A program made the translations under genes and the position numbers. Under the pieces are notes generated by a model. The model ran no database searches and was not told the origin of the DNA. It saw only the letters and a program-made list of their open reading frames with translations. Shown here piece by piece: positions 24,046 through 54,583 of a DNA stretch of 64,000 bases (its first letter is position 1; each line of letters opens with the position of its first letter). The DNA is taken from contig CAYMEV010000003.1 of the NCBI GenBank assembly GCA_964389675.1, positions 65,109 to 129,108 on the forward strand. Reading direction: 5' to 3'. Origin of the DNA: an uncultured Candidatus Sumerlaeota bacterium. Its GTDB lineage: Bacteria; CAYMEV01.

Positions 24046-24136
24046 TTCCTATTTTTTTCCTTAATCCAGCAAAATTATCAGGCTTATATTATAATCCTGG
24101 GTCCTGTCCGCGTCAAATTAATTTAATTATGGCCGG

Positions 24137-24748: not shown

Positions 24749-24795
24749 TGCATGCTCCTGAATATTATCTCTTAAATCAGATTACGGCCATTATA

Positions 24796-27067: not shown

Positions 27068-27068
27068 T

Positions 27069-28112: not shown

Positions 28113-28202
28113 CAATACTAAGGGGCACTGATAAGGTGCCCTTTCTATTTTTCACTTATTGAACCACTTTATTTTATATCCCTGGAAAATGGTCTGATCA
28201 AT

Positions 28203-29579
28203 ATGGCTTTAAGGAATAAGATCCGTATTTATGCGTTCTGGTTTTTTTTCGTATTATCCGCTTTGTCTTTTCTCTTTTTAATACTTAATCTTATTGCCGG
28301 GGCTAAACAGCTGGATTTCCTCTTATTCAGGCTCAGCTTCAGGAATACAGGGAAACTCATACAAAATCTGCTCATTATCACTTTTATTGCATATTTGGCC
28401 GATCGCCTTGAGTTTAAGAAGCAGTTAAAAAGATGCAGGCCCATGATTGTAATTATCCTGATGGCGCTTCTTGCCTTTATTCCTGCGAAAATACTTTTCA
28501 GCAATTATTCTCCATATAATAAATTTACCTCACTGATAAATTTCGGGCAGGAACAGTTTAAAGACGCATTGCCGGAAATCCGCGGATCATATCCTGCTGT
28601 TGCTTCAAAATGGGGCTATGACGGTCAGTACTATGCTCAGCTGTCTGCCGACCCGCTCCTGAGAAGTGATAAGCTTCCCAAAGCTCTTGATCTGCCTCAT
28701 TACAGAGCAAGGCGTATTGGACTGCCGTTCCTGGCTTTTTTGCTTGGAATGGGGAAAACATCCCGGGTCCTGAATGTTTATTCAGTCCTGAATGCAGCAT
28801 TCTGGATCCTTCTCCTGGCAATTATTATAGTGCATACAGGCTGCAGGAGGTACAGGGACTTCCTGCTGGCGGCCTCAATGCTGTGGGCTACGGGGACTCT
28901 GGTCTCAGTTGAGAGGGCATTGACAGACCTTCCTGCAGCTGTAATGGGGGTTGCAGCCGTTTTTACGCGCAGTTCATGGATAGCTGCTGCAGTGCTTCTT
29001 AGCTGTGCAGGTCTTATCAAGGAAACCTCAATACTGAGCTTTACTGCTGTTCCTGTCGAACCGGGGTCAAAGCATGAAAGAAGAAAAAGACTGCTGGCAA
29101 CATTGTTTATCTGCCTTCTGCCTGTTCTTGCATGGGCTTTATATGTTCATCTTGTTTTTAAAAATATGGCCGGAATGGGGGGCAATAACTTTAATCTGCC
29201 ATTTTTTGGAATCTTCATGAAATTTCAATCAGCCATATCAGGGCTGATAACAGGTAAAGCGGGAATATTGGGACACCAGCTGTTATTTGAACTTCTATGC
29301 CCTTTTTCTCTTCTGGTTCAGGCATTATACCTTGCAGTATGTTTCCGTCCGGATTCAAAAGAATGGAGATTAGGAGTTGGATTTGCTTTTCTTCTTTTAT
29401 TTCTGGGCTCTGATGTGTGGGCTGAACAGCATGCATATTCGAGAGTCCTTCTTCCTATGACATTTTCCTTCAACCTTCTCCTGCACAGATTTGAAAAGGG
29501 ATATAAATACGCTATTTTATATATATTGGGTAATACCGGAATGTTCTGGGCAGTATTCTGGCATTTCCAGCAGGCCTGA
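28203..29579 (+). CDS. Polytopic integral membrane protein of unknown function
   Basis: More than 10 predicted TM helices. Co-oriented with a downstream GT-C-like gene. Confidence 0.4.
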   Translation: MALRNKIRIYAFWFFFVLSALSFLFLILNLIAGAKQLDFLLFRLSFRNTGKLIQNLLIITFIAYLADRLEFKKQLKRCRPMIVIILMALLAFIPAKILFSNYSPYNKFTSLINFGQEQFKDALPEIRGSYPAVASKWGYDGQYYAQLSADPLLRSDKLPKALDLPHYRARRIGLPFLAFLLGMGKTSRVLNVYSVLNAAFWILLLAIIIVHTGCRRYRDFLLAASMLWATGTLVSVERALTDLPAAVMGVAAVFTRSSWIAAAVLLSCAGLIKETSILSFTAVPVEPGSKHERRKRLLATLFICLLPVLAWALYVHLVFKNMAGMGGNNFNLPFFGIFMKFQSAISGLITGKAGILGHQLLFELLCPFSLLVQALYLAVCFRPDSKEWRLGVGFAFLLLFLGSDVWAEQHAYSRVLLPMTFSFNLLLHRFEKGYKYAILYILGNTGMFWAVFWHFQQA

Positions 29580-29620
29580 TGCCTGGAAAGGATTAAATTG
29601 ATATACCTGGATAAAGAGCT

Positions 29621-30988
29621 ATGTTCAGACTGCTGAAGAATAAGAGAAATATAGTATATCTGATCACAGGTTATGCTGCAGTATTGCTGATATCCTTTAT
29701 CTTTCATTATGCCTTTTATTACCCTGAGCATGAGATAAGGGTGGAGAGTGACGGGATAGGCTATTATTCCTACCTGAGGTCGGTCTTCTTTGACGGCGAT
29801 ATTGAGTTTTCAAATGAATTTGAAAGGCTCGGTTCCGATGATTTTGCCCTGCCTTCTCCGGATGACAGGACAGGTGAAGGCTATACCCCTAATCCATTCT
29901 CGATCGGGCCGGGAATACTCTGGAGCCCTTTCTATATCTGCGCCCATATGGCAGGGTATGCAATGAATATGCTCGGCGCTGATATTGTCCTTGATGGTTA
30001 CAGCGGAATTTATGTCTACTTTTGTGTTGCCGGGACAATCTTTTATGGATATCTGGGATTGTATCTTCTCTTCAAAATGCTGAGCATATTCTTTTCTAAA
30101 ACTATCTCTTTCTCTGTTACAGGATTTATTCTGTTCGGGAGCGCTCTGTTTTATTATATGATATCAGAATATTTCATGTCGCATGTTCATTCGTTCTTTG
30201 CAGTTACACTCCTTTTATACTTCATTTTCATCAGGCTTGACAGGGAAAGGGGCAGTGAGACAGACTGGTTTTTTGCCGGGCTTATTTCCGGGTTTGCCGG
30301 AATTATCAGGTGGCAGAACATAGGTTTTGCAATAGTGCCCGCTTTCCTGCTGATACTGAATACATGCAGAGAGTATAAAAAAGCAGGCAGGAAAAGAGTG
30401 TTTACAGGGCTTATAAGAAGGGCTTCCCTGTTTGGGGCAGGGTTTATTATCATCATTATCCCTCAAATGATTATTATAAAAATGATCTACGGGTTCTGGT
30501 TTGGAATACCGCAGGGGCAGGCTTTCTTCTCATTTGACATTTTAAGGATGTTCTATGTGCTCTTTTCACCGTATCACGGCCTTTTCCAGTGGCATCCCAT
30601 ACTGCTCTTCGGGTTTGCAGGGCTCATATTATCAGGGTTTAAATCCTTAAAGAACCTGTTTTTTCTTATGGCCTTTATTATACAGGTATATATAGTAAGC
30701 CTGCCTTATGACTGGTGGGCAGGGCATTCATTCGGCATGAGAAGGCTTCTGAACAGCAGCGCGCTTCTTGCTTTCGGCCTTTCGGGCATCCTGTATGCCT
30801 TATCCAGAAAGAACAGGGCTGTCTACAGGATCATCTATCTTGTTTTCATAGTATTTTGCCTGATAAACATCCTGATGTCATGTGCATATGTCAAATCTCT
30901 AATACCACATGATATTCCATGGTCCTACATTCAATCCCTTGAAAGCATAATCTTTCTGGTCAGGAAGATTATGCTCAAGCTGTTTTAG
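29621..30988 (+). CDS. GT-C fold membrane glycosyltransferase-like protein (ArnT/PMT-like)
   Basis: Multi-TM protein with a first-loop motif ESDGIGYYSYLRSVFFDGDIEF resembling the ArnT/PMT DE..Y..AR....GDW signature. Paralog of 58071. Confidence 0.45.
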   Translation: MFRLLKNKRNIVYLITGYAAVLLISFIFHYAFYYPEHEIRVESDGIGYYSYLRSVFFDGDIEFSNEFERLGSDDFALPSPDDRTGEGYTPNPFSIGPGILWSPFYICAHMAGYAMNMLGADIVLDGYSGIYVYFCVAGTIFYGYLGLYLLFKMLSIFFSKTISFSVTGFILFGSALFYYMISEYFMSHVHSFFAVTLLLYFIFIRLDRERGSETDWFFAGLISGFAGIIRWQNIGFAIVPAFLLILNTCREYKKAGRKRVFTGLIRRASLFGAGFIIIIIPQMIIIKMIYGFWFGIPQGQAFFSFDILRMFYVLFSPYHGLFQWHPILLFGFAGLILSGFKSLKNLFFLMAFIIQVYIVSLPYDWWAGHSFGMRRLLNSSALLAFGLSGILYALSRKNRAVYRIIYLVFIVFCLINILMSCAYVKSLIPHDIPWSYIQSLESIIFLVRKIMLKLF

Positions 30989-31001
30989 GAATTTAAAAAG
31001 G

Positions 31002-32009
31002 CTATTTCTTTTCTAATTGCAGTGAAAGGGTTTCATAAGCTTTTAAAAGCCTTTTAATTATCTTGATTGCTTTTGCTTTTATTTCCTTGTTTTCCAATTT
31101 TCTTATTTTATCAGGATGGAATTTATGGACAAGCTTATTATAGTTCTTATCAAGCTGTTTCTTTGTATAGGGATCCTTTATTCCCATCAGCTTAAAATCG
31201 TCTATTTTGCTCAGGTTTTTATAGAAAAATTCTATATTGGATATAATGCTGTCATCTTCTTTGGCGAATTTATAAAGCCTTTCAATTATACCGCAGGATA
31301 TAAACCCGAAAAGGGTCTTGTAGGTAAAGTAATCTGGAAGGTTTGAATGTGCACAGATCTGATCATTGGTATTCCTGCCGTTTATCAGCTCCAGGATCTG
31401 GAGTTCTTCCGAGTTAAGCTTAAGTTCCTGAAAACGGAAGATGGGGTTATGCGATATGCAGTAAACAGCATTCAGATCTCCGACTGCTTTCCTTATAGCA
31501 TCCCACTGTCCCATTCTTTTGACCCCGTTGAATATAAGGCTTCCGGTAGAAAGCTCTATCTTTATATTTTCACTTTGAATTTCCTTCTCGAAGAAGCTGT
31601 AATCTCCGTCAGAGAATGAAAACAGGCTGTAGATGATCTCTTCCAGGTGGCTCTGGACAGCTTTGACCAGTTCCTTTTCAGAGATCGCCCCCATATTCAG
31701 CAATGTTGTCCCGATACGGTCTTCATTCTGAACCTTCACTGATTTTTCCAGTTCTTTAAGCGTTATAAGAGAGCGCTTCAGGCAGTAAACGCCAATCCTG
31801 TCGTTAATATCGCTTGATATGGCAAATACTATGTGCCCATCCTGGAAAAGTACCTTTTTTATGGTGTTCTGCCTTATAATCTGCAGTATGCCTGTTTTCT
31901 GAGTCTGGTAAATAGACCTGAAAACAGCAGATATAGGGATATCGCTTAAAGAACCCTCTATTTTGTGCTCCATGGAAGTGATTTTCCATAAATTAAGAGT
32001 GATTGTCAA
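31002..32009 (-). CDS. DUF4388 (PATAN-like) domain protein with a C-terminal DnaJ J-domain
   Basis: N-terminal DUF4388 pattern (GSLSDIPISAVFRSIYQTQKTGILQI....VLFQDGHIVFA). C-terminal J-domain with the HPD motif (YNKLVHKFHPDK). Confidence 0.6.
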   Translation of the reverse strand: MTITLNLWKITSMEHKIEGSLSDIPISAVFRSIYQTQKTGILQIIRQNTIKKVLFQDGHIVFAISSDINDRIGVYCLKRSLITLKELEKSVKVQNEDRIGTTLLNMGAISEKELVKAVQSHLEEIIYSLFSFSDGDYSFFEKEIQSENIKIELSTGSLIFNGVKRMGQWDAIRKAVGDLNAVYCISHNPIFRFQELKLNSEELQILELINGRNTNDQICAHSNLPDYFTYKTLFGFISCGIIERLYKFAKEDDSIISNIEFFYKNLSKIDDFKLMGIKDPYTKKQLDKNYNKLVHKFHPDKIRKLENKEIKAKAIKIIKRLLKAYETLSLQLEKK

Positions 32010-32110
32010 TTAAAAAAGGCTATGCATGCTTTATCATTTTCTTATAAAATTATTCCATATTGCCTCTATCTGGAAAATTTTTGGATTTAATTCAAAGAAT
32101 TAAATGTTTC

Positions 32111-32139
32111 TTGCAAATATAATTTTCTTGTTTTATAAT
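32111..32139 (+). promoter_or_regulatory. Candidate sigma70 promoter (TTGCAA, 17-nt spacer, TATAAT) for the FHA/fliA/T3SS operon
   Basis: TTGCAA at 32111-32116 and a perfect TATAAT at 32134-32139, 59 nt upstream of the 32198 start. Confidence 0.45.
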
Positions 32140-32197
32140 TTTAGCTGTGAAGTTTATAAGATAGCCTCAATTATGATCTTAAAATGGAGTATATGAT

Positions 32198-33124
32198 ATG
32201 GCTGAAATTGTATACAGGGAAAACCAGGAAGAAAGGCTTATAACCCTTGATAAGGATTCATTTGTGATTGGCAGAAGCCCAAGCTGTGAAATTGCAATAA
32301 GCAGTGACACAATATCAAGAAGGCATGCAAAACTGGAAAAAAGGTCAAACCGGTATTATATTACTGACCTTGGAAGCAGGAATGGTGTTTTTGTCAATGA
32401 TGAAAAGATAGTTGAATCAGTACTGAAGGATGGAGATTTTATCAAGCTTGGTGTTTTTGAGTTTACCTTTCATGATAAAGAGCCTGTTATTGTAGACAGC
32501 AATAAGACAATACAGCAGGAGCAGAAGACCATTATGCTGGAAAACCCGCTTGAGAAATTCATATTAAAGGACCTTCCGGCATCTGAGGATACATATATTG
32601 AAAAAAAAGAAAAAGATAAAGTAATTGAAGATGATATAATTGCTGAAGACCGGCAGGAAAGTACGCCTGATGATGATGAAAGCGAAATTGAATCAGATGG
32701 ATACTTCCCCAACCTTCTGATCTTTCATGATGAAAAGGCATTCAGGGCTACCATAAAAAAGAACCGTAATACGATCGGAGGTTCTGCGATTTCTGATATA
32801 CCCATAAATCACGAAGGTTTTCCTGAATCAGCCTGTATTATCAGGAATGAAAAGGGCATTTTCTATTTAGTGGATGAATTTCAGACAGGGGAGATCATGT
32901 ATAATAATGTCCCTGTAATACATAAAAGACTGTTTGATAAGATGATATTTATGATTCAGGATGTGACTTTCCAGTTTATTTCCAATAAGAAGGGTGCTGA
33001 AGCAGTTTTTGAAAAAGTTTATGCTGTCTTCAGGATTTTTATTGAAAAACCTCTGATAGGCATGGCATTTGTTGCTGGAATTCTTATTCTGATCTCTCTT
33101 CTTCTTGTTATATTTTTATTATAA
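32198..33124 (+). CDS. FHA-domain protein (one clear and one probable FHA) with a C-terminal TM anchor; SctD-like cytoplasmic module
   Basis: FHA motif VIGRSP.CEIAI..DTISRRHAKL....YYITDLGSRNGVFVN. A second FHA-like block (NTIGGS...ACIIRNEKGIFYLVD). A C-terminal hydrophobic helix MAFVAGILILISLLLVIFLL. Confidence 0.65.
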   Translation: MAEIVYRENQEERLITLDKDSFVIGRSPSCEIAISSDTISRRHAKLEKRSNRYYITDLGSRNGVFVNDEKIVESVLKDGDFIKLGVFEFTFHDKEPVIVDSNKTIQQEQKTIMLENPLEKFILKDLPASEDTYIEKKEKDKVIEDDIIAEDRQESTPDDDESEIESDGYFPNLLIFHDEKAFRATIKKNRNTIGGSAISDIPINHEGFPESACIIRNEKGIFYLVDEFQTGEIMYNNVPVIHKRLFDKMIFMIQDVTFQFISNKKGAEAVFEKVYAVFRIFIEKPLIGMAFVAGILILISLLLVIFLL

Positions 33125-33140
33125 AAATTAAGGATATTTT

Positions 33141-33845
33141 ATGAGCCTGAGAAGCGAACCTTCTAATGAGCTGTCTGAAGAACTGATACAAAATTACCAG
33201 GATTATCTAAGAAAGATCGCATATTTTGTGAAGATTACGCTTCCTGATAATATTGAGATCGACGACCTGGTCCAGTATGGGGAGATCGGCCTGATAGAAG
33301 CAGCAAGAAAATTTGATCCGAAACTGGGTGTTTCGTTCAAGACATACAGCTATTACAGGATCAGGGGTGCTATATATGACGGGCTCAGGACCATGGGGCT
33401 TTTTAAGGCAAAACAGTATAAGAATCATGTAATGCGCCAGAAAATCAATGACCTGATGATGCAGGAAACAAATAATGTAAATATAAACAGCGATACCTGC
33501 AGAAATGATGACAGCGTTGAAAGACTGCGGGATATATTTTCCAGTGTTGCAACACTTATCACTCTTTCTTATGCATCTTATATGGACCATGAGGTACAGA
33601 ACGGCAATGATGATATAAATAAGGAGCTTATAACCGAGGAAACAAAATCCTTAATTATGAAGGCAATTGAACAGCTTTCCCATAAGGAAAGAAATGTTGT
33701 TAAGCTTTACTATTTTGATGAACTGACATTTGAAGACATCGGCAAAGAAATGGGGCTTTCAAAGAGCTGGATTTCACGTGTACATCTGCAGGCGATAAAT
33801 AAGCTTAAGCAGAAGCTTAAGCAAAGTAATATAACAACATATTGA
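33141..33845 (+). CDS. fliA: Sigma-28 (FliA/WhiG) family RNA polymerase sigma factor
   Basis: Sigma-70 region 2 (DLVQYGEIGLIEAARKFDPKLGVSFKTYSYYRIRGAI) and region 4 (LTFEDIGKEMGLSKSWISRVHLQAINKLK). 234 aa, typical of FliA. Confidence 0.8.
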   Translation: MSLRSEPSNELSEELIQNYQDYLRKIAYFVKITLPDNIEIDDLVQYGEIGLIEAARKFDPKLGVSFKTYSYYRIRGAIYDGLRTMGLFKAKQYKNHVMRQKINDLMMQETNNVNINSDTCRNDDSVERLRDIFSSVATLITLSYASYMDHEVQNGNDDINKELITEETKSLIMKAIEQLSHKERNVVKLYYFDELTFEDIGKEMGLSKSWISRVHLQAINKLKQKLKQSNITTY

Positions 33846-33897
33846 CAGATAGAATCGATAATCTATATGTAATGTTATATAAGGAGGTGTCGCAACT

Positions 33898-34359
33898 ATG
33901 GATCCTGTATCGTCAAAGACTGTAAAAAAAAGCATTAGCAATATTGCTGAGAAGAATATTCAGAATGAGATGAATAAAAATCTTCCGACAAATCCAGATA
34001 AACCTTCCAGCTTTGAGCAGCTTCGGCTTGATAAGGTAAATGAAATACCAAAGGATGCTGAACTTAAGGTTAACGAGGTTGGAAAGCAAAAAGATATGGA
34101 TATATCAAGCACGCAGAAAGTCCAGGACAATAATCCCATAGACGGCTTGAAAAACCTGACCGATAACCTTGAGAAAAGCAATGTAGAGCTTGATAATCTC
34201 ATCAAGAGTGTTATGCAGGATGGCAGGTCATTTTCACCGTCTGAACTGATGGCAATGCAAGCTCAGATATATCAGCTTACCAGGGAGATAGAACTTACCA
34301 GCAAGGTTGTTGAACAGGCCAACCAGGGCATAAAGACCATGCTGAATCAGCAAGTATAA
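33898..34359 (+). CDS. FliE-like or T3SS inner-rod-like protein
   Basis: The C-terminus (SELMAMQAQIYQLTREIELTSKVVEQANQGIKTMLNQQV) resembles the FliE C-terminus (...MQ...KLV.AYQEVMSMQV). Sits in the fliE position before the MS-ring gene. Confidence 0.35.
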   Translation: MDPVSSKTVKKSISNIAEKNIQNEMNKNLPTNPDKPSSFEQLRLDKVNEIPKDAELKVNEVGKQKDMDISSTQKVQDNNPIDGLKNLTDNLEKSNVELDNLIKSVMQDGRSFSPSELMAMQAQIYQLTREIELTSKVVEQANQGIKTMLNQQV

Positions 34360-34370
34360 GGAGAAACTGC

Positions 34371-35171
34371 TTGAAAAAAATAAAAATCTTTTTAACCATG
34401 TCTATTTTACTTATGATGTTCGTATCCTGCGGGAATACAGTTCTGTACCACGGGCTCTCGGAAAGGGGAGCAAATGAGATACTGGTCATACTTGAACAGA
34501 ATGGGATAGCGGGGGAAAAAGTACTGGATGAAACTCAAAAAAAGATCATGCTCTTTAATATTGTCGTGGCAAAAAGCGATAAGAACCAGGCTCTGGAAAT
34601 CCTGAAAGAGAAAGGCCTTCCAAGGATAAACCCGGTTGGCATGAATGAGATGTTCAGCGGGTCCAGCCTTATTCCCACCATTACAGAAGAAAAAGCCAAA
34701 TATCAGATAGCAATGCAGGGTGAGATCGAAAAAACCCTTCTGCAGATGCAGAATGTTATTTCAGCAAGGGTCCATCTTGTTATTCCGGATGCAGATAATG
34801 TCGAACAGCAGAATGAACCTGCGATAGCCAAGGCCTCTGTATTTTTGAAATACTACCAGGGCCTGCAGCAGACACCAATGTTTACGGAAAAGGATGTGCA
34901 GAATATTGTTGCAGGGGCAGTGCTTGAGCTGACTCCAGGCAATGTTACTGTAGTGCTTCAAAGGATACAGCCTGTCGAGGTATCCCAATCATCGCCAAAA
35001 TATACCAGTTTCATGTTCTATAATATCGCGCCTGAATCAAAAAAGAGCATGCAGATAACACTTGTTATTATCTTATCAGTGGTTTTTATACTTTTATTTG
35101 CTATAGTTATAATGTTCCTGAAGATCAAGGATTTGAAAACATCCCTAAGCATTATAAAAACAAAAAAATAA
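34371..35171 (+). CDS. SctJ/YscJ-like lipoprotein (truncated FliF-family MS-ring protein)
   Basis: Lipoprotein signal MSILLMMFVSC. CGNTVLYHGLSERGANEILVILEQNGIAGEKV resembles YscJ/EscJ C.EQLYTGLT.KEANQM.ALLQSNGI.AEK. ISARVHLVIPDADNVEQQNEPAIAKASVFL resembles both the FliF and SctJ ring-building motif. One C-terminal TM. 266 aa, versus about 550 for FliF. Confidence 0.7.
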   Translation: MKKIKIFLTMSILLMMFVSCGNTVLYHGLSERGANEILVILEQNGIAGEKVLDETQKKIMLFNIVVAKSDKNQALEILKEKGLPRINPVGMNEMFSGSSLIPTITEEKAKYQIAMQGEIEKTLLQMQNVISARVHLVIPDADNVEQQNEPAIAKASVFLKYYQGLQQTPMFTEKDVQNIVAGAVLELTPGNVTVVLQRIQPVEVSQSSPKYTSFMFYNIAPESKKSMQITLVIILSVVFILLFAIVIMFLKIKDLKTSLSIIKTKK

Positions 35172-35175
35172 TAAT

Positions 35176-36123
35176 ATGCAGGAAATTAAGACATTTGTAA
35201 GTCTTCTGGCCTTCCAGGATATAGACAGGAAGGATGACCTGCTTGAGTATCTCTGCAATGACTGTAAAGAGATCTGCGCGCAATACCTGCAGGAATTTGA
35301 AGGGAAAACTCAGGAAGAAATACATAAATTATCCCTGATTGAGCTTAAAGAGGATATCGCAAAAAATTTTCTGAAAATATACAGTTCTTTCCATTTCAGC
35401 TGGCTTGAAGATTTTTTCAGGAATGAAAGCCGGGAAACAATATCAACAGTCCTCAAATTCGTCCCTCTTGAGATGTCCGGCGCTATTCTCGGGTTATTTT
35501 CCGAGGAGGAAAGAAATGAGATCCTGCAGACAATACCAAGCTCATTTGTTAGCAGGGAGATAATGGAGATTCTTAAATTCAGCATTATTGAAAGGTACGG
35601 AGCGATTCCAGCTGATGCGGACCAGATTATCCGGAGTGACCAGATACTCAAGTTTCTTATGCAGAATGATGTTGATCTTACCAGCTTTCTTTCCTTTATA
35701 TATTCTTATGAAATATATGCTCTTTTAAGCAAGACAGTTTCTGCTGATAACAGAGCACAGATATGCTCTGAGATGAGTACGGAAAAAGATATAAATGCAC
35801 AGGTTGAATGGTTTAACAGGGCACATGCTTCAATTGATTTTGATTATACTGTATTTTCCAGAGCATGTGATTTCAGGATCTCTGTCAATAAGGGATACCT
35901 TATAATCCCCTTTATCAGGATTTTTACCTGCCTGCAGTCAAAGAACCTTATAAAAAGTGCTGCAAGGGCTATTTCATACAGGATGGAGATGTCAGCGGGG
36001 AATGATTTTCTGCTTTTTTGCGAGGACAATGAAAAAACAGCAAATCCAGTCAATGCAGAGATGAATTCAAAGAGACTGTCAGAAATAATACATAGCTATA
36101 AGTTATTTAAAAGCGAGGCTTAA
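35176..36123 (+). CDS. FliG/MgtE-N-like domain protein in the fliG position
   Basis: SRETISTVLKFVPLEMSGAILGLFSEEERNEILQTIPSSFVSREIMEIL resembles the FliG middle-domain pattern HPQTIALILSYL.PDQAAEIL..LPEELQAEVV.RIA. The C-terminal torque-helix motifs are not evident. Confidence 0.35.
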   Translation: MQEIKTFVSLLAFQDIDRKDDLLEYLCNDCKEICAQYLQEFEGKTQEEIHKLSLIELKEDIAKNFLKIYSSFHFSWLEDFFRNESRETISTVLKFVPLEMSGAILGLFSEEERNEILQTIPSSFVSREIMEILKFSIIERYGAIPADADQIIRSDQILKFLMQNDVDLTSFLSFIYSYEIYALLSKTVSADNRAQICSEMSTEKDINAQVEWFNRAHASIDFDYTVFSRACDFRISVNKGYLIIPFIRIFTCLQSKNLIKSAARAISYRMEMSAGNDFLLFCEDNEKTANPVNAEMNSKRLSEIIHSYKLFKSEA

Positions 36124-36125
36124 AA

Positions 36126-36770
36126 ATGTCATTTTCAGACGATACCAAAAAGGTGGTTATTCAGAAAAGTTCGGACGATATCATCGGCCCGCCTCCTGAG
36201 AGGAAGATCCTTACCAAACAGGAAATTGATGCATCAAAAATGGCTCAGACGATTATCGAAGAGGCAAAGAAGAAGGCTGAGGAGATAATAGGGGAAAAGG
36301 AAAAAATAGTAGAGGAAGCCAAAAATGAGGCTTACAATGAGGGTTATAAAAGCGGGCTTGAAAGTATCAATAAGATTCTTCTGGAGCTTAAGGACCTGAG
36401 GAACAATACAATTGTGGCCATGGAGTCTGAGATAGTAAAACTGGCTTTCAGGATAGCGAGGAAGATACTCGGATATGAAATGCAAAGGGACGATACAACG
36501 GTGTTGTCCATCGTTAAAGAGGTATTAAAGGCTTCAAGGCACCAGAAGTCTATTAAGCTGTCTGTAAACCCTGATGATTATAAAATAATAAAGCAGAACA
36601 GGGAGAGCCTTGTTGCTGTTCTTACAAAATGCGAAAGTTTCCTGATAGAGCCGAATGAACATATTTCAAAGGGAGGCTGTGAGATTGAGACGGAGATAGG
36701 AAATGTATCAGCAAACCTCGATACGCAGCTTGAGGTTCTGGAATCACTGCTCTTGAACAAGGAGGTATGA
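36126..36770 (+). CDS. FliH/SctL family T3SS ATPase stator-regulator
   Basis: Charged coiled-coil N-terminus ([35 protein letters not shown]) followed by a FliH-type C-terminal domain. Immediately precedes the ATPase gene. Confidence 0.6.
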
Positions 36771-38101
36771 AATTGGCTTCATCCCCCATTAAACTGGATA
36801 AGTACCTTAAACTGCTTGATACAGCAAGCACTGTAAAGGTAAGAGGGCGGGTAATTGAGCTTACCGGGCTTATTATAAAGGCTTCAGTACCCGGTGTCAG
36901 GATCGGCGAAACATGTTATATCGAGTCATATAACCGCGTATCGCCTCTTAAAGCAGAGGTAGTCGGATTCAAGGGAGATAATGTAATGCTTATGCCGCTT
37001 GGTGACCTGACAGGCATAGGGCCTGACAGCCAGGTGATACCCACAGGCAAATCCTTCAGCATAAGAATAGGGGACCAGCTTCTCGGCCATGTGCTCGATG
37101 GACTGGGACAGCCTCTGGATATAAGCGAGGAAGAGTTTCAAGGCTTTGATCTCGATACATATTCCGTTAATTCCGATCCCCCGGATCCCCTTAAGCGCAG
37201 AAGGATACTTGATTACCTGTCAATAGGGATCAGGGCAATTGACGGCCTGCTTACTGTCGGAGAAGGGCAGAGGATGGGCCTTTTTGCAGCAGCTGGTGTA
37301 GGCAAGTCAACCACAATGGGAATGATAGCCCGCAATACTGAAGCTGAAGTGAACGTTATTTCATTGATAGGGGAAAGAGGAAGAGAAGTAAGGGATTTTA
37401 TGGAAGAAAGCCTTGGAGAGGAAGGTTTGAAGAAATCAATTGTCGTTGTGGCCACATCTGATAAACCATCTCTTGTAAGGCTTAAATCAGCATTTGTTGC
37501 CACGGCCATAGCGGAATATTTCCGTGATAAAGGCAGAAAAGTGATGCTTATGATGGACAGTGTCACAAGGTTTGCAAGAGCACAGAGGGAAGTTGGGCTG
37601 GCCCTGGGTGAACCGCCTGCAAGGCAGGGATACCCCCCGTCTGTCTTCTATATGCTTCCCAAACTCCTTGAGAGGACAGGGAATTCAGACAGGGGATCAA
37701 TTACGGCTTTCTATACTGTCCTGGTCGCGGGGGATGATATGACAGAACCTATTGCAGATGAGGTAAGGTCCATACTTGACGGGCATGTTATCCTTTCACG
37801 CGAAATGGCATCAAGGAATCATTATCCTGCTATAGATGTGCTAAGAAGCGTCAGCAGGGTAATGACTGCGGTAGTGGACAAGGAGCATATAGAGTTTGCG
37901 GGCAGAATGCGTGACCTTCTGGCTACATACGAGAAACAGAAAGACCTTATACTAATCGGAGCATATAAGAAAGGCTCTGATGAAAAGGTAGACAAGGCAG
38001 TTGAAATGATTGACAGGATCAACGAGTTCCTGAAACAGGGGCTTTATGAGAAGTGCTATATTGATGAAACGATTGAGAAACTGAAAGAGATGTTTGCATG
38101 A
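36767..38101 (+). CDS. Type III secretion ATPase (FliI/SctN)
   Basis: Walker A AAGVGKST, a Walker B region and full-length F1-like architecture. 444 aa. Overlaps the fliH-like stop by 4 nt. Confidence 0.9.
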
Positions 38102-38601
38102 GCGGCAGGATAGTATACAGGCTTGAACCGGTCCTTAACCAGAAGGAAGAAGAGAAGAACGAAGCTACCCGGAATCTTGCCTTTGCACAGAAGAAGCTTG
38201 AAGATATCAGGGAAGAGATCAGGGGGCTTGAGAACCTTGTAATAAAAAGGGTTGAAGAGAAAAAGCAGGCGGAGCTTGCTCACTTTGAAAAACTCAGTAC
38301 AGAGGGGATGGCTGCAAAGTCTATTCAAGGACACCAGGCTGAAATGAAAGCCATTGATATATCAGTTGAGGAGATAAAGGAAAAGATAAGCTTAAAAAAA
38401 ATAGAGGAAAAGAATGCCGAACAGGATCTCAATACTGCTAAGGACAGGCTGGTTGAAGCAACCAAGGAATACAAGACCATGGCGAAACACAAAGAAAATT
38501 TCATCAGGGAACAAAGGGCCATTCTCAGCAAAAAAGAACAGAAGGAAATGGACGAAATTTCCAGTTTGATATATAATTTCAAGGGGAAAGGAGATGAATG
38601 A
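38098..38601 (+). CDS. FliJ/SctO-like coiled-coil chaperone-escort protein
   Basis: 167 aa, predicted all-helical and charged. In the position that follows the ATPase in T3SS operons. Confidence 0.45.
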
Positions 38602-39259
38602 TATGGAAAAGGTATCGACCACAACACAGAAAACAAAAGCAGCACCCAGCGATACCAAGCAGACAAAAGACGCAAAACAGCCATCAGAAAAGTCTTTTGC
38701 AAAGGTATTTCACCGAAAGGGTGAAGATCTGTCAATGCATGACTCAAAGAAGGATATAAATAAGCAGTTAAGGAAGGATATAATACTGGGTGAAGACACA
38801 GAGAAGAAAGAGAAAGGAAAGGAAGGAAGTGAAGAAAAGCTTGATGGATTCATGATCCCGAGACTCATTTCAGAAAAATCAGGTGCTGAAGGCATAAAGG
38901 AATCCATTAAGGTCGGGGAAGCGAAAGTAAAGCTTGACGAGAATCTTATAAACAGGATTGTTGAATCTGCCAGGATCGTGAGAAAAGGTGATACAGCTTC
39001 AATGGAGATCAATATCAAATCGGATGTTTTTGAAAACCTTAAGCTTATTGTCACAGCTGAGGGTAATGCAGTTAAAACAGAGTTCATTACGGACAACCCA
39101 ATGCTTAAGGGGCTTATTAAGGATTCAATGGTCGATCTTGAGCAGAGCCTCGTTGCAAGAGGCCTTGAGGTTCTTGATATTGTTGTCAGGGATGAGCCTC
39201 CTAAGTCTGAAAGCCAGAAACAATACGATGAGTACAGGAGAATAAATGAGCAGAAGTAG
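38594..39259 (+). CDS. FliK/SctP-like length-control / substrate-specificity-switch protein
   Basis: Lys/Glu-rich low-complexity N-terminus. The C-terminal about 100 aa (ENLINRIVESARIVRKGDTASMEINIKSDVFENLKLIVTAEGNAVKTEFITDNPMLKGLI) are T3S4-like. In the fliK position. Confidence 0.4.
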   Translation: MNDMEKVSTTTQKTKAAPSDTKQTKDAKQPSEKSFAKVFHRKGEDLSMHDSKKDINKQLRKDIILGEDTEKKEKGKEGSEEKLDGFMIPRLISEKSGAEGIKESIKVGEAKVKLDENLINRIVESARIVRKGDTASMEINIKSDVFENLKLIVTAEGNAVKTEFITDNPMLKGLIKDSMVDLEQSLVARGLEVLDIVVRDEPPKSESQKQYDEYRRINEQK

Positions 39260-40709
39260 CCTACCAGTCAATATCAGGTCTGTATCTGAGCTGGAGCATA
39301 AAATGAAAATTATTGCAAATCAGCTTGAATCAGACCTTATCTATGAATTCAGCCAGGAGATTGAGAACCTGTTTAAGGATAAGCACATACTTATCAGGTT
39401 CCAGGATAAAGTTGAATTGTCCATGTTTGACAAAGAAACTGATCGTGTTGAAGAAATCTTTTCATACTCAATGGATAAAGGGGAGATAACTCTTGGAAAA
39501 GCCCCAAGCAATGATATCGTCATTATTGAAAGGTATATAAGCAGAGAGCATGCCTTTTTCAAGCTGACTGACAAAGGGGTCTTCCTTACTGACAACGGAT
39601 CAACAAATGGTACTTATATTAATGGAGTAAAAATGAATCCGAATGACCCCCAGCAGCTGAATAATGAAGATATACTGCATTTTGGGGCGCAGAAGATCAA
39701 GTTCTGCATAAAGAAAGAGGCTTCAGATGATATAAGGCTTAAATCCTCCTGTTCCGTAAGCATTGAAAGGAACAGCCCCATTATAAAACCGATCTATAAG
39801 TCTCCGATAATGATCTGCAGATTTATCAAGAGCAATAAAAAAGTAATATTTGAGACAGACCGCTATTTTTTCTATGATATAATAAATTCGCTTCTTGGTT
39901 TTGGCGAAACTGAGGGATTTGTCTATGAAAAACCTGTAACAGAGATCGAAGAGGGCGTTTTCCTGTATCTGTTTGCACTGGTTCTTGATAAAATCAACAG
40001 GATTCTGATACCTGAAGAGGATATTCTGGTATTTGAAAAAAAGGGCACCGGGGATGACCTTATTATCAGCGGAGAATATCTCCAGCTGGGGTTGTGTATT
40101 AATGCAAACAGGAATAAATACGGCATCAGGATATATATTGAAGGTGATTCTTTAGGCATAAAATCAAGCGTCAATAACGGATTCAGGCCTGAAATACTCG
40201 GCATACTTTCTGCTGAACCTGTAAGCCTTGACCTGCATGCAGGCAAGGCAAGCCTTTCATACGATGAACTCAAATCCATTAATAATCAGTCCATACTTAT
40301 AATAGATAAATGGTATCTTAATTCGAGAACTCCCCAGGCGGACGATGTGATTGTCGTAAGCCAGCCTGATACGGGCATATGCTTCAGGGGGCGGGTATCA
40401 GATAATAAGAGTAAATTTCAGGTTATTATCGATCAAATATTCAAAAAGGAGAATCTATCTATGGATGAATTTGATACGGAGAAAGATAAGGTTATCGGCA
40501 ATCTTGATACAGAAATATATGTGGTGCTTGCATCAAAGAAGATTGCACTTTCTGAGCTTTCAAAGATAAAAAAGGGAGATATTCTGGATTTTGAGGGTAA
40601 AATTGATAATAAGGTGAGCCTTGTTGTCAATAAAAGCGTTTTCGCAAAGGGAGAGCTCATTGAATATGAAGGAAAGATAGGCGTTGAGATTACCGATGTC
40701 CTTTATTAA
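39246..40709 (+). CDS. FHA domain fused to a FliM-like middle domain and a FliN/SpoA C-terminal domain (SctQ-like C-ring protein)
   Basis: FHA: ITLGKAPSNDIVIIERYISREHAFFKLTDKGVFLTDNGSTNGTYING. FliM-like block IINSLLGFGE....TEIEEGVFLYLFALVLDKI, resembling IDRLLGG.G....LTEIE. SpoA/FliN C-terminus VVLASKKIALSELSKIKKGDILDFEG...SLVVNKSVFAKGELIEYEGKIGVEITDV. Confidence 0.7.
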   Translation: MSRSSLPVNIRSVSELEHKMKIIANQLESDLIYEFSQEIENLFKDKHILIRFQDKVELSMFDKETDRVEEIFSYSMDKGEITLGKAPSNDIVIIERYISREHAFFKLTDKGVFLTDNGSTNGTYINGVKMNPNDPQQLNNEDILHFGAQKIKFCIKKEASDDIRLKSSCSVSIERNSPIIKPIYKSPIMICRFIKSNKKVIFETDRYFFYDIINSLLGFGETEGFVYEKPVTEIEEGVFLYLFALVLDKINRILIPEEDILVFEKKGTGDDLIISGEYLQLGLCINANRNKYGIRIYIEGDSLGIKSSVNNGFRPEILGILSAEPVSLDLHAGKASLSYDELKSINNQSILIIDKWYLNSRTPQADDVIVVSQPDTGICFRGRVSDNKSKFQVIIDQIFKKENLSMDEFDTEKDKVIGNLDTEIYVVLASKKIALSELSKIKKGDILDFEGKIDNKVSLVVNKSVFAKGELIEYEGKIGVEITDVLY

Positions 40710-49552: not shown

Positions 49553-51541
49553 ATGGAAAACGAAAGATTCAAGGGATATATACTTTTCGAAAAATTCAGG
49601 AAGACTGAACTTATCGAGAGTTACAGGGGTGTAATGCCCAGTGCAAACCCTGCGCATGACCAGATTGACCTGCTGAATACTCAGCTGAGTTCCAATGCAA
49701 AATTCTGCAATATTCTTTCTGAGCACATGGAGAAGATAAAAAGAAATACCGACCTTCAGGGTATTTTTAAGATCAAGGAATCTGGCACCTTTGATGACCA
49801 TTTCTATGTTGTGAAGGATTATAAGAAAGCAAAAAGCCTGAAAGATATAATCACTGAGTCAAATGAGCAATACTTTCCGATCAATCTCGACCATTCAGTT
49901 TATATAGTCAGACAGCTCTCTGCCTTTTTCCAGTATATCCTTGCCAATGTGGACAAAGGGACTGTCCTTTATTTTATTGATCCCGAGGATATAATAATTA
50001 CCTTTGAGGGAGAGATTTTCCAGGATAATCTTTATCTTGCCGATGCTATCACCCAGACATTCGGTAAAAGCATTCCCAGATTCGGGAATTCAGTGTCCTA
50101 TTTTGCCCCTGAATACATAAGCAAAGGAATAATCAGCGAAAAGAACATTATTTTTTCTCTTGGGGCGGTCTTCTATGAGATATTAAGCAATAAAAGGCTT
50201 ATGCCTGATAATATTGATGAATTTAAGAAATCCCTGGATTCTTTTTCATACCCTGAAGAAAGTGATTTTGAGGAGACAATTGACCAGCAGCTTCTGGATA
50301 TTCTGACCAAGATGATACAGATAGACCCCGATGAGAGGTATGAAGACCTGAATGCCCTTCAGGCAGACCTTGATGAGTATATAGAGGAAGGTGATTTTTC
50401 ACCGACGACCTTCCATTTTGTATTCTTTCTTGAGACGCTTTTCAGGGAATATACCGAGAAGCTTCCGAAGGTTATGGAGCAGGAGATAGAAGAAGCCAAG
50501 CACCTTGAGCTGGAAGCAATAAGGGAATCTGAAGAGGAAATGCTTCAGCAGAAGATGGAAGAAACAAAGAAAGAGAGCAAATTCCCTGTACTTCCAGTGG
50601 TCATAGTGCTTCTTTTTATCGGCCTTATTATAGTGGGCCTTACATTGCCGAGAGCATGGAAAGATGAGGCTGAGGCCATGCTTGAGGAGAAGAAGAAGGA
50701 ACTTGAAAAGGCACAGACATATGACCAGACAGAACCTGCAGAAGTCCCTGCAGAAGTGGATACTGAGCCTGCAGAGCCCGATGAGGATTCAGGCCAGACA
50801 GAGCCTGTTGTTACTGAGCCCCCTGTACAGCCTGAAGACATAACAGAAGAGCCTCCGGTACAGGATGATGCGGAACAGAGGAGGCTGGAAGCAGAAAGGG
50901 CTGAAAGAGAGAGGATCGAACGGGAAAGAAGGGAACAGGAGAGGCTTGCTCAGGAGCAGGCGGAGAAGGATCAGGCTGAAAAGGATAGGCTTGACCGTGA
51001 AGAAAAACAGAAACTGGAAAGGATAGATAATCTGGTACAGACTGCACAGTCACAAATAGCAGATAAGAATATTGATGAAGCAAAAAAATCTGTTTCCAGC
51101 ATACTGGAGATCGATCCGGAGAACGAAAAGGCAAATGATCTCAGCATTGAGATTGATAAGATAGAAAGAGACCTGTCCAAACAGCGCAGGGCAGAGCTTG
51201 TAAAAATCCCTATCAACATATCAGAGGCAGATACAGAACCGACTCTTATAAACAGTCCCCGCATAGACCTGCGGCAGGTCGAGGGGCGAATACCCCGGGA
51301 TATCCTCAGGGACCTTAAGAACAGGGTAAACAGAATAACTGTAAGGATGCTTGTATCAGAAAATGGGGATGTAGAGTCTGTTGAGGAAATATTTGTGCAG
51401 AAGTCTGTTTATGGGACATTTGAGAGGACAGGATTGATCGCGGAGATCGATAAGCAGATAAGGTCAGCGAAATATACACCTGCTATTAAGGATGGGATGA
51501 AAAGGAAGTGTTATGTGACACTGACATTTCCCTGGAATTAA
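49553..51541 (+). CDS. TonB-like membrane protein with a cytoplasmic Ser/Thr-kinase-like (pseudokinase) domain
   Basis: Kinase-fold remnants: YFAPEYI matches the APE motif; NIIFSLGAVFYEILS matches subdomain IX. No G-loop, HRD or DFG. One TM helix (FPVLPVVIVLLFIGLIIVGLTL). An acidic Pro/Glu-rich and ER-repeat linker. A C-terminal TonB_C-like domain (ITVRMLVSENGDVESVEEIFV...AKYTPAIKDGMKRKCYVTLTFPW). GGAGGG SD 7 nt before ATG 49553. Confidence 0.55.
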   Translation: MENERFKGYILFEKFRKTELIESYRGVMPSANPAHDQIDLLNTQLSSNAKFCNILSEHMEKIKRNTDLQGIFKIKESGTFDDHFYVVKDYKKAKSLKDIITESNEQYFPINLDHSVYIVRQLSAFFQYILANVDKGTVLYFIDPEDIIITFEGEIFQDNLYLADAITQTFGKSIPRFGNSVSYFAPEYISKGIISEKNIIFSLGAVFYEILSNKRLMPDNIDEFKKSLDSFSYPEESDFEETIDQQLLDILTKMIQIDPDERYEDLNALQADLDEYIEEGDFSPTTFHFVFFLETLFREYTEKLPKVMEQEIEEAKHLELEAIRESEEEMLQQKMEETKKESKFPVLPVVIVLLFIGLIIVGLTLPRAWKDEAEAMLEEKKKELEKAQTYDQTEPAEVPAEVDTEPAEPDEDSGQTEPVVTEPPVQPEDITEEPPVQDDAEQRRLEAERAERERIERERREQERLAQEQAEKDQAEKDRLDREEKQKLERIDNLVQTAQSQIADKNIDEAKKSVSSILEIDPENEKANDLSIEIDKIERDLSKQRRAELVKIPINISEADTEPTLINSPRIDLRQVEGRIPRDILRDLKNRVNRITVRMLVSENGDVESVEEIFVQKSVYGTFERTGLIAEIDKQIRSAKYTPAIKDGMKRKCYVTLTFPWN

Positions 51542-52029: not shown

Positions 52030-52135
52030 TTAATAAAGGATACCAGCATTCAGTTATTAGTCAAAAATTAAATATTTATTGCAATAAATATAATTTGCTG
52101 TATCCTAAAAAACAGATAATTATCGGAGGTTATAA

Positions 52136-52990: not shown

Positions 52991-52997
52991 AAAAATA

Positions 52998-54575: not shown

Positions 54576-54583
54576 GAAGCTAT

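What the first reader, a model, noticed from the sequence alone, without database searches (positions are those of the whole stretch)
39246..40709. C-ring protein with an N-terminal FHA domain where FliM normally binds CheY-P
The SpoA (FliN) C-terminus and the FliM-like middle block are preceded by a canonical FHA domain (GxxxxNDIxI...SREHA...GSTNGT). In FliM the N-terminus carries the CheY-P binding peptide. Replacing it with a phospho-threonine reader suggests the switch or sorting platform is wired to Ser/Thr phosphorylation rather than to chemotaxis two-component input. FHA-GGDEF, FHA-FHA-TM and kinase-fold proteins are encoded in the same neighbourhood.
Basis: seen in the sequence. Interest (0 to 1): 0.75.

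Follow-up and report, generated by a model that had tools for sequence, protein, structure and literature searches.

The report
T3SS ring protein carrying FHA domain
This gene encodes the cytoplasmic-ring subunit (SctQ, a FliM–FliN-type protein) of a flagellum-like, apparently needle-less type III secretion machine, and it has acquired a phosphothreonine-reader (FHA) domain, which suggests but does not prove that the machine's assembly or cargo choice is coupled to Ser/Thr phosphorylation.

Summary
ORF 39246..40709 (+, 487 aa) has five parts:
- a short N-terminal helical segment
- a full FHA fold (Pfam E 2.6e-19)
- two SpoA domains (FliMN_C E 6e-14; SctQ model TIGR02551)

It lies between sctP and fliO/sctR in a 12-kb cluster with flagellar gene order: σ28-SctI-SctJ-FliG-like-SctL-N-O-P-Q-FliO-R-S-T-U. 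The window holds no SctV, secretin or SctD.

The same FHA–SctQ architecture occurs in about 25 sequences: four close relatives of an unnamed deep lineage and several Acidobacteriota clades. Relatives of this SctQ type in Myxococcota and Bdellovibrionales lack the FHA.

In the Blastocatellia clade the FHA is an insertion behind a conserved N-terminal segment. It does not replace a CheY-P peptide, which the whole family lacks.

The pThr-contact residues are kept, except Arg→Lys in the window's clade. They are lost in one acidobacterial clade. The neighbouring kinase-fold protein is a pseudokinase.

Best reading: a phospho-dependent docking module on the sorting platform (about 0.5). Main rival: a phospho-independent structural adaptor.

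This is a new variant of a known kind, and I found no paper describing it.

The parts
39246..40709 (+). FHA-SctQ gene (487 aa): cytoplasmic-ring / sorting-platform subunit with an inserted FHA domain
39246..39398 (+). N-terminal segment (residues 1-51; predicted helices 15-27 and 30-45)
   Evidence: AF2 secondary structure. It aligns by position with the conserved N-terminal segment of the family. Homology is significant for the acidobacterial FHA forms only.
39399..39719 (+). FHA fold (residues ~52-158; Pfam core 81-147) with G84-K85, S99-x-x-H102 and N121-G122
39723..40145 (+). FliM-middle / CheC-fold domain (residues ~160-300); GGXG motif degenerate (G218-F-G-E)
40212..40445 (+). SpoA1-like domain (residues ~323-400)
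   Evidence: TIGR02551 alignment 323-483. Beta-rich secondary structure in the AF2 model, at low pLDDT.
40446..40463 (+). Internal Shine-Dalgarno (AAGGAG) + 9 nt + in-frame ATG (Met406): candidate start of an 82-aa SctQ-C product
   Evidence: AAAAAGGAG-N9-ATG is identical in all four clade members while flanking synonymous sites vary; 12 such motifs in the window, and at least 6 of them lie at gene starts.
40497..40703 (+). SpoA2 (FliN-type) domain (residues 418-486)
   Evidence: Pfam PF01052 E 6.1e-14. PDB sequence hits to FliY, FliN, SpaO and HrcQ2.
32198..33124 (+). First gene of the cluster: canonical FHA (23-85), a degenerate FHA-like region and a C-terminal TM helix (279-308); no periplasmic domain
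   Evidence: GarA-like, E 1e-11. Conserved in L002 and L085.
33141..33845 (+). FliA/WhiG-type sigma factor
   Evidence: Pfam. TIGR02479 E 2.6e-43, below its cutoff.
33898..34359 (+). SctI (inner rod)-like protein
   Evidence: PF17001, TIGR02497; PF09392 in orthologues.
34371..35171 (+). SctJ inner-membrane ring lipoprotein
   Evidence: PF01514. TIGR02544 158 bits against FliF 42 bits.
35176..36123 (+). FliG homologue (middle and C-terminal domains), at the position of sctK / fliG
   Evidence: PF14841 E 2e-6. Family profile A4 hits FliG structures, 3usw E 2e-12. FliG_C hits in orthologues.
36126..36770 (+). SctL / FliH stator
36767..38101 (+). SctN / FliI ATPase
38098..38601 (+). SctO / FliJ stalk
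38594..39259 (+). SctP / FliK-like protein
   Evidence: PF02120 E 7.5e-7, just below its cutoff.
40684..41067 (+). FliO-like single-pass membrane protein
   Evidence: TM helix 29-58. The orthologous position in L003 hits PF04347 FliO.
41048..43957 (+). Export gate SctR (41048..41815), SctS (41817/41859..42086), SctT (42099..42905), SctU (42905..43957)
45747..46703 (+). FHA-GGDEF diguanylate cyclase (GGDEF motif intact), same domain order as Bdellovibrio DgcB
49538..51541 (+). Membrane-spanning pseudokinase (HRD->LYF, DFG->DNL, no VAIK Lys or Gly loop)
   Evidence: Conserved in L002.

Best explanation
Shown: the gene encodes the SctQ-type cytoplasmic-ring / sorting-platform subunit of a conserved, flagellum-ordered, non-flagellar T3SS-like apparatus. 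It is a FliM-middle domain followed by two SpoA domains, in effect a FliM-FliN fusion. A canonical-type FHA domain lies between a short N-terminal segment and the FliM-like domain.

Inferred:
1. The FliM-like domain and the SpoA domains build the ring or pods under SctJ together with the adjacent FliG homologue, and they connect through SctL to the SctN ATPase.
2. An internal start at Met406 probably supplies extra SpoA2-only subunits (SctQ-C), as in YscQ and SpaO.
3. The FHA domain, placed at the membrane-proximal and peripheral end of the subunit, docks onto a phosphothreonine on a partner. Candidates are the FHA-TM protein, the transmembrane pseudokinase, the FliG-like protein or another envelope protein.
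4. Assembly or activation of the export platform is thereby gated by a Hanks-type kinase/phosphatase pair encoded elsewhere. This would resemble the way Fha1/TagH couples the H1-T6SS to PpkA/PppA.
For: Identity and architecture:
- Operon position between sctP and fliO/sctR.
- The same gene order in relatives at 69% and 53% identity, in Acidobacteria and in Myxococcota.
- A FliG homologue next to SctJ.

FHA as a phospho-reader:
- Gly84, Ser99, His102, Asn121 and Gly122 are invariant in the window's clade, and the full GR/SxxH/NG set is kept in the Blastocatellia clade, P0114, L022 and L027.

Signalling context:
- Two more FHA proteins and a kinase-fold protein are conserved in the cluster.
- In sister loci L035, L040 and L064, catalytically intact homologues of that kinase sit beside FHA-sigma54 activators next to the same T3SS-like cluster.
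- There is precedent for STK input into a T3SS: Chlamydia PknD phosphorylates the FHA-bearing SctD homologue CdsD (PMC2765968).

Internal start: AAAAAGGAG-N9-ATG is conserved at synonymous sites in four orthologues. Relatives split the gene at the same point into FliM-like and FliN-like ORFs.
Against: - The phosphate-contacting Arg of the 'GR' motif is Lys in all five members of this clade.
- The Bryobacteraceae/Solibacteraceae FHA-SctQ clade has lost the Ser and Asn yet keeps the domain, so a phospho-independent role exists at least there.
- The only kinase-fold protein in the cluster is catalytically dead. No active Hanks kinase or PP2C turned up in the window ORFs scanned; six ORFs of 136-214 aa were not scanned.
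- No ligand was identified.
- SctV, a secretin and SctD were not found in the window, so it is not shown that the apparatus secretes anything.
- The SpoA regions of the model have low confidence.
Confidence: 0.5

Rival explanations
1. The FHA is a phospho-independent structural adaptor. It plays the part that the cytoplasmic FHA-like domain of SctD (with SctK) plays in injectisomes, tethering the pods or ring to the membrane complex in a system that has no SctD ring.
For: - No SctD with periplasmic domains is present in the cluster.
- Arg is replaced by Lys at the phosphate-contact position in this clade.
- The Bryobacteraceae/Solibacteraceae and L016/L018 FHA-SctQ forms lost the Ser and/or Asn but keep the domain.
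- The GGXG motif that links FliM to FliG is degenerate in every FHA-bearing clade but kept in most relatives without the FHA. This suggests the FHA took over a structural contact.
- Several acidobacterial FHA-type loci show no FliG-like gene between sctJ and sctL.
- The local kinase homologue is dead.
Against: - Ser99, His102 and Asn121 are invariant in this clade, and the full motif set is kept in Blastocatellia.
- The domain is closer to pThr-binding FHAs than to YscD.
- The cluster keeps two other canonical FHA proteins, one with GR/SRRH/RNG.
Confidence: 0.3
2. The FHA is a cargo or chaperone receptor. The sorting platform selects export substrates, or a regulator such as the FHA-GGDEF cyclase, that are tagged by threonine phosphorylation.
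For: - SctQ pods are the substrate-sorting platform in injectisomes (established knowledge; PMC9907115 and PMC10769875 listed).
- The FHA keeps most pThr-contact residues.
- An FHA-GGDEF protein with a 65-residue N-terminal tail is encoded in the cluster, with the same domain order as DgcB. From memory, DgcB's FHA binds a phosphorylated tail (PDB 6hc0 'tail complex').
Against: No substrate, effector or chaperone gene was identified. There is no direct evidence. The same objections about Lys85 and the missing kinase apply.
Confidence: 0.12
3. It is a genuine flagellar switch protein (FliM/FliY-like) whose chemotaxis input was exchanged for Ser/Thr-kinase input.
For: - The gene order matches fliF-fliG-fliH-fliI-fliJ-fliK-fliM/N-fliO-fliP-fliQ-fliR-flhB, and there is a FliA-type sigma factor and a FliG homologue.
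- The core export proteins score equally on flagellar and non-flagellar models.
Against: - The ring protein is a short SctJ lipoprotein (158 bits) rather than FliF (42 bits).
- An SctI-like rod protein is present, and two SpoA domains match the SctQ model.
- No rod, hook, flagellin or Mot genes are present in 64 kb or in the related loci.
- Relatives without the FHA also lack a CheY-binding peptide.
Confidence: 0.04
4. The fusion is an artefact: a frameshift or mis-assembly joined an FHA gene to sctQ.
For: None, beyond the rarity of the architecture.
Against: The same continuous ORF occurs in independent assemblies and phyla (P0001-P0004, P0013, P0084, P0114, P0162-P0176, L004-L027). There is a strong SD at the start.
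Confidence: 0.01

Closest known systems
SctQ (YscQ, SpaO, HrcQ, EscQ): injectisome cytoplasmic-ring / sorting-platform protein
   Same: - C-terminal SpoA1-SpoA2 pair (TIGR02551 aligns to 323-483).
- Operon position between sctP and sctR.
- Neighbours are SctL, SctN and SctO.
- A likely internal start gives a SpoA2-only product.
   Different: - An inserted FHA domain.
- The region before the SpoA domains is a clear FliM-middle/CheC fold.
- The partner next door is a FliG homologue rather than SctK.
- No SctD, secretin, SctV or needle genes were seen in the window.
- The score is below the family's curated cutoff (49 against 100.8 bits).
FliM / FliN (and FliY): flagellar C-ring switch proteins
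   Different: - No CheY-P-binding LSQxEIDALL peptide.
- GGXG motif degenerate (GFGE).
- FliM and FliN parts are fused.
- The FHA is inserted.
- The context is non-flagellar.
'Myxo'-type NF-T3SS of Abby & Rocha 2012 and the needle-less T3SS* of Myxococcus xanthus (PMC3459982, PMC12075869)
   Same: - A T3SS-like cluster with the export gate, ATPase, SctJ and SctI, but without secretin, needle or translocon.
- The nearest SctQ relatives without the FHA are from Myxococcota and Bdellovibrionales MAGs.
   Different: - The Myxo systems are described as lacking FliG, while this family has a FliG homologue.
- No FHA on SctQ is reported there.
- I did not test directly whether the M. xanthus loci belong to the same subfamily.
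- No Tad/Kil genes are present in the window.
SctD cytoplasmic FHA-like domain (YscD, PrgH, MxiG; Chlamydia CdsD)
   Same: An FHA fold at the interface between the membrane rings and the sorting platform. CdsD is phosphorylated by the Hanks kinase PknD (PMC2765968).
T6SS Fha1/TagH with PpkA/PppA (threonine-phosphorylation pathway)
   Same: An FHA protein of a secretion machine whose assembly is gated by a Hanks kinase. The FHA scores on the TagH model (TIGR03354, E 2.9e-9).
   Different: It is a different machine. TagH is a stand-alone scaffold rather than a ring subunit. No kinase/phosphatase pair has been identified here.
Bdellovibrio DgcB (FHA-GGDEF, PDB 6hbz/6hc0)
   Same: It is the best solved sequence match of this FHA (E 5.6e-8). 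An FHA-GGDEF protein with the same domain order is encoded 5 kb downstream.
   Different: DgcB is a cyclase, not part of a secretion apparatus.

Membership tests
FHA domain (PF00498), pThr-binding type | FHA beta-sandwich fold | tested here: met
FHA domain (PF00498), pThr-binding type | Conserved phosphate-contact residues: Gly-Arg, Ser-x-x-His, Asn-Gly (Rad53 FHA1 G69/R70/S85/H88/N107; numbering from memory) | tested here: inconclusive
   G84, S99, H102, N121 and G122 are present and invariant in the clade, but Arg is replaced by Lys85 in all five clade members. The full set is present in the Blastocatellia orthologues and lost in the Bryobacteraceae clade.
FHA domain (PF00498), pThr-binding type | Binding to a phosphothreonine ligand | not testable with these tools
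   This needs peptide-binding assays.
SctQ (TIGR02551 / PF01052) | C-terminal SpoA (FliN-type) domain | tested here: met
   PF01052 at 418-486, E 6.1e-14.
SctQ (TIGR02551 / PF01052) | Two tandem SpoA domains (SpoA1 and SpoA2) | tested here: met
   TIGR02551 aligns to 323-483 (profile 136-298 of 300), E 6e-13, but the score is below the curated cutoff. The model is beta-rich over 326-400, at low pLDDT.
SctQ (TIGR02551 / PF01052) | Encoded in a T3SS operon next to sctN/O/P and sctR/S/T/U | tested here: met
SctQ (TIGR02551 / PF01052) | Internal translation start producing SctQ-C | tested here: inconclusive
   A conserved AAGGAG-N9-ATG lies at Met406 in four orthologues. The protein product has not been observed.
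FliM (PF02154) | Middle CheC-like domain | tested here: met
FliM (PF02154) | N-terminal CheY-P-binding peptide (LSQxEIDALL) | tested here: not met
   The N-terminus is MSRSSLPVNIRSVSELE.... The family instead has an RPFxFxNLPKxS segment.
FliM (PF02154) | GGXG motif contacting FliG_M | tested here: not met
   The motif is LLGFGE here. LLGGxGE is kept in most relatives without the FHA.
FliM (PF02154) | Flagellar gene context (rod, hook, Mot, FliF) | tested here: not met
   None in 64 kb. The ring protein is SctJ rather than FliF.
Injectisome (NF-T3SS) | Core set SctC, SctD, SctF, SctV in addition to SctJ, N, Q, R, S, T, U | tested here: not met
   SctJ, L, N, O, P, Q, R, S, T, U and an SctI-like protein are present. 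No secretin, SctD, SctF or SctV is in the window. They could be encoded elsewhere: SctV-like ORFs lie 6 kb downstream in L016 and L018.
Myxo-type / needle-less T3SS* | Export gate, ATPase, SctJ and SctI without secretin, needle or translocon | tested here: met
   Gene content, compared with the description in PMC3459982.
Myxo-type / needle-less T3SS* | Phylogenetic membership in the Myxococcales clade; absence of FliG | tested here: inconclusive
   The nearest relatives without the FHA are Myxococcota and Bdellovibrionales MAGs, but the NJ tree has no support values. A FliG homologue is present here. The M. xanthus loci were not compared directly.

The most novel reading that the evidence does not exclude
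A phosphothreonine-gated C-ring. In a flagellum-ordered, FliG-containing, needle-less T3SS-like machine that is equidistant from flagella and injectisomes, the ring subunit itself reads Ser/Thr-kinase output. Platform assembly, or the choice of phospho-tagged cargo, would then be switched by phosphorylation. That would be a regulatory principle not described for any type III system.
Probability: 0.35. Interest if true: 0.8.

Novelty: new variant of a known kind. Interest (0 to 1): 0.62.

Why it matters
Sorting platforms and C-rings are where type III machines take regulatory input: CheY-P in flagella, and SctK/SctD contacts in injectisomes. A ring subunit with a built-in phosphothreonine reader would show a third kind of input, Hanks-kinase signalling, acting directly on the platform.

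The carrier system is itself informative for how injectisomes arose from flagella:
- It keeps the flagellar gene order, a FliG homologue and a FliM-fold SctQ.
- Its core proteins score equally on flagellar and non-flagellar models.
- In sister lineages the SctQ gene is split FliM/FliN-style.

Its relatives sit in Myxococcota and Bdellovibrionales, groups that include predatory bacteria, and in Acidobacteriota. The only studied member of this general kind, the M. xanthus T3SS*, acts in prey lysis.

Tried and rejected
- The first AF2 run on four close homologues gave pLDDT 49 and was discarded.
- The genome-contig scan with the single protein found nothing. The window's genome is not among the GTDB representatives.
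- The listing of cluster members returned no names or accessions.
- The Lon search to place the organism gave only unnamed relatives above 58% identity, and under 50% to any named taxon. Taxonomy is unresolved.
- The afdb50 fold library was unavailable.
- My regex for a 'FHIPEP' motif was meaningless, because FHIPEP is an acronym and not a motif. I replaced it with the DAMPGKQ motif of FlhA/SctV, recalled from memory.
- The NJ tree of SctN does not show whether the FHA insertion arose once or several times.
- The profile of the N-terminal segment from relatives without the FHA matches the acidobacterial FHA forms but not the window's clade. 'Insertion' is therefore shown for Acidobacteria and only inferred by position here.
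- Literature searches for an FHA-SctQ or FHA-FliM fusion found nothing.
- The flagellar-switch reading and the assembly-artefact reading were considered and rejected.
Full report
**1. Observation**

It has an AGGAG ribosome-binding site 6 nt upstream and overlaps the end of the preceding gene by 14 nt.

- Pfam finds an FHA domain at residues 81-147 (E 2.6e-19) and a FliN-type SpoA domain at 418-486 (E 6.1e-14).
- NCBIfam's SctQ model TIGR02551 aligns to 323-483, covering two tandem SpoA domains, although below its curated cutoff.
- The middle block has no direct FliM (PF02154) hit.
- A first AlphaFold model on four close homologues was poor (pLDDT 49).
- A second model on a 17-sequence alignment reached pLDDT about 90 in the FHA and 70-80 in the middle.
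- A profile of the window's clade alone finds the acidobacterial protein P0084 end to end (61-483 against 61-524, E 1.4e-21). P0084 hits PF02154 at 168-318 (E 4e-17), and 13 of 17 aligned homologues hit PF02154.

One detail was missed. The 'GR' of the FHA signature is 'GK' in this protein.

**2. Context**

The gene sits in a + strand cluster. In order, the genes are:

1. an FHA protein with a C-terminal TM helix
2. a FliA/WhiG-type sigma factor
3. an SctI-like protein
4. SctJ
5. a FliG homologue
6. SctL/FliH
7. SctN/FliI
8. SctO/FliJ
9. an SctP/FliK-like protein
10. FHA-SctQ
11. a FliO-like protein
12. SctR, SctS, SctT and SctU

Downstream come an unknown gene, a GT2 glycosyltransferase, an FHA-GGDEF cyclase, further unknowns and a kinase-fold membrane protein.

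- This is the flagellar fliF-to-flhB gene order.
- The 315-aa protein between SctJ and SctL is a real FliG homologue. A profile of ten orthologues hits FliG structures in both the middle and C-terminal domains (3usw, E 2e-12).
- The ring protein is SctJ (158 bits) rather than FliF (42 bits).
- The ATPase and the gate proteins score almost identically on flagellar and non-flagellar models.
- No SctV, secretin, SctD, rod, hook, flagellin or Mot genes occur in the window.

**3. Distribution**

- The word-indexed search of 5.8 billion proteins found only three other close homologues (69, 55 and 53% identity).
- The loci of P0002 and P0004 carry the same gene order. The 2.7-kb contig of P0003 shows only the SctP-like gene, FHA-SctQ and the start of the next gene.
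- The exhaustive profile search added P0013, P0084 and P0114 with the same architecture.
- A search with the FHA removed found about 17 more FHA-SctQ proteins in Acidobacteriota, mainly Blastocatellia. NCBI names them 'SctQ' or 'FliM/FliN family'.
- A scan of GTDB species genomes gave 80 loci.
- My HMM scan of those loci shows the FHA fused to SctQ only in one close relative (L004) and in seven Acidobacteriota loci.
- The Myxococcota and Bdellovibrionales relatives (about 415 aa) lack the FHA. Many 'Deltaproteobacteria' MAGs split the gene into a FliM-like ORF and a FliN-like ORF.
- The cluster order is shared by FHA and non-FHA loci.
- SctV-like ORFs lie 6 kb downstream in two acidobacterial loci.
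- Lon places the organism in no named group, at under 50% identity.

**4. Insertion, not replacement**

Relatives without the FHA begin with a conserved segment of about 60 residues (M..RPFxFxNLPKxS..., then a helix) that runs directly into the FliM-like domain. A profile of that segment aligns to residues 1-59 of the acidobacterial FHA forms (E about 1e-10). The FHA is therefore inserted between this segment and the FliM-like domain.

The window's clade has a segment of the same length and helical pattern, but it is too diverged to score. No member of the family has a CheY-binding peptide.

**5. Is the FHA a phospho-reader?**

For:
- By sequence and by fold it is closest to proven pThr-binding FHAs (DgcB, Rv1747, GarA, FhaA). 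It is more distant from YscD.
- Gly84, Ser99, His102, Asn121 and Gly122 are invariant in the clade.
- The Blastocatellia clade keeps the full GR/SxxH/NG set.

Against:
- Arg is replaced by Lys85 in all five clade members.
- The Bryobacteraceae/Solibacteraceae clade has lost the Ser and Asn but keeps the domain.
- The FliM GGXG motif is kept in most relatives without the FHA and is degenerate in every FHA-bearing clade. This hints at a changed structural contact with FliG.

**6. Kinase context**

The 667-aa kinase-fold protein lacks HRD (LYF), DFG (DNL), the catalytic-loop Lys and Asn, the VAIK Lys and the Gly loop. It is a pseudokinase and is conserved as such in L002.

Its homologues in loci L035, L040 and L064 keep all the motifs. 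Each lies next to an FHA-sigma54 activator, beside the same T3SS-like cluster. An association of this T3SS-like family with Hanks/FHA signalling is therefore real. No active kinase or PP2C turned up in the window ORFs I scanned (all but six of those of 130 aa or more).

**7. Internal start**

AAAAAGGAG-N9-ATG lies at Met406, 12 codons before SpoA2. It is identical in all four clade members although neighbouring synonymous sites differ. Of 12 such motifs in the window, at least six lie at gene starts.

This fits the known SctQ-C products of YscQ and SpaO (established knowledge). It also fits the split genes in relatives.

**8. Interpretation**

The identity is secure: an SctQ-type ring subunit with a FliM-fold middle domain and an inserted FHA.

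The most likely mechanism is phospho-dependent docking of the platform to a pThr-bearing partner, gated by a kinase encoded elsewhere. I put this at about 0.5. The precedents are T6SS Fha1-PpkA (from knowledge) and Chlamydia PknD-CdsD (PMC2765968).

The main rival is a phospho-independent adaptor that stands in for the missing SctD/SctK link (0.3). A receptor for phospho-tagged cargo is possible (about 0.1). A true flagellar switch and an assembly artefact are rejected.

**9. Novelty**

No paper in the searchable library describes an FHA-SctQ or FHA-FliM fusion. The proteins exist in databases under generic names.

I classify this as a new variant of a known kind, carried by a poorly studied T3SS-like family related to the 'Myxo'/T3SS* systems (PMC3459982, PMC12075869).

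Noticed in passing
window 35176..36123 (+); also L002 5937..6872, L003 5294..6271, L008 4984..6027, L033 4593..5564: A FliG homologue (middle and C-terminal domains) is encoded between sctJ and sctL in a non-flagellar T3SS-like cluster. The 'Myxo' NF-T3SSs were described as lacking FliG. It occupies the gene position of sctK.
   Followed up: partly
window 40446..40463 (+): A conserved internal Shine-Dalgarno and in-frame ATG (Met406) predict a separate 82-aa SpoA2-only product (SctQ-C). The motif is identical in four orthologues at synonymous sites.
   Followed up: partly
window 49538..51541 (+); L035 16661..20229, L040 9049..12856, L064 10427..14519: The cluster's kinase-fold protein is a pseudokinase. 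Its homologues in sister loci keep all catalytic motifs and are paired with FHA-sigma54 enhancer-binding proteins next to the same T3SS-like cluster.
   Followed up: partly
window 39891..39914 region (residues ~216-223); loci L002-L083: The FliM GGXG motif (LLGGxGE) is conserved in most relatives without the FHA but degenerate in every FHA-bearing clade (LLGFGE, IFGSES, IFMGQES).
   Followed up: partly
L006, L024, L028, L032, L033, L035, L038, L040, L042, L054, L057, L058, L062, L064, L067, L072, L077: In these MAG loci, variously labelled Deltaproteobacteria, Pseudomonadota, Bdellovibrionales or unclassified bacterium, the SctQ equivalent is two ORFs: about 305 aa (FliM-like middle plus SpoA1) and about 125-180 aa (SpoA2). 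This is a FliM/FliN-style split at the point where the window's gene has its internal start.
   Followed up: no
window 36767..38101, 41048..43957: SctN, SctR, SctT and SctU score almost identically on the flagellar and the non-flagellar NCBIfam equivalogs (for example 638.4 against 636-638 bits; 342.7 against 341.2 bits). The system looks equidistant from both.
   Followed up: no
window 1..64000; L016 16375..18489, L018 16540..18678: No SctV/FlhA, secretin or SctD is present in the window. SctV-like ORFs (DAMPGKQ motif) lie about 6 kb downstream of FHA-SctQ in two acidobacterial loci.
   Followed up: partly
window 45747..46703 (+); L003 1..786: FHA-fused cyclic-nucleotide cyclases accompany the cluster in two distant lineages: FHA-GGDEF in the window, and FHA-GAF-guanylate/adenylate cyclase in the Acidobacteria locus.
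   Followed up: no
window 31002..32009 (-): A DUF4388 (PatA_N)-DnaJ protein is encoded directly upstream of the cluster, on the opposite strand in the window and in L002 and on the same strand in L085. It is conserved at this position in all three.
   Followed up: no
window 25988..27067 and 27069..28112 (+), 28203..30988 (+): Two adjacent proteins that look paralogous by eye have no Pfam hit. They are followed by two polytopic membrane proteins, also without a Pfam match. They are partly conserved upstream of the cluster in L002.
   Followed up: no
window 47010..47330 (+): A small ORF (106 aa) with a CxxC...CxxC pattern lies in the otherwise empty gap between the FHA-GGDEF gene and the next gene.
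   Followed up: no
window 1566..3872 (+): The Lon protease has unnamed relatives at 58-75% identity and then drops below 50% to any named organism. The window appears to come from a deep, poorly sampled bacterial lineage.
   Followed up: partly
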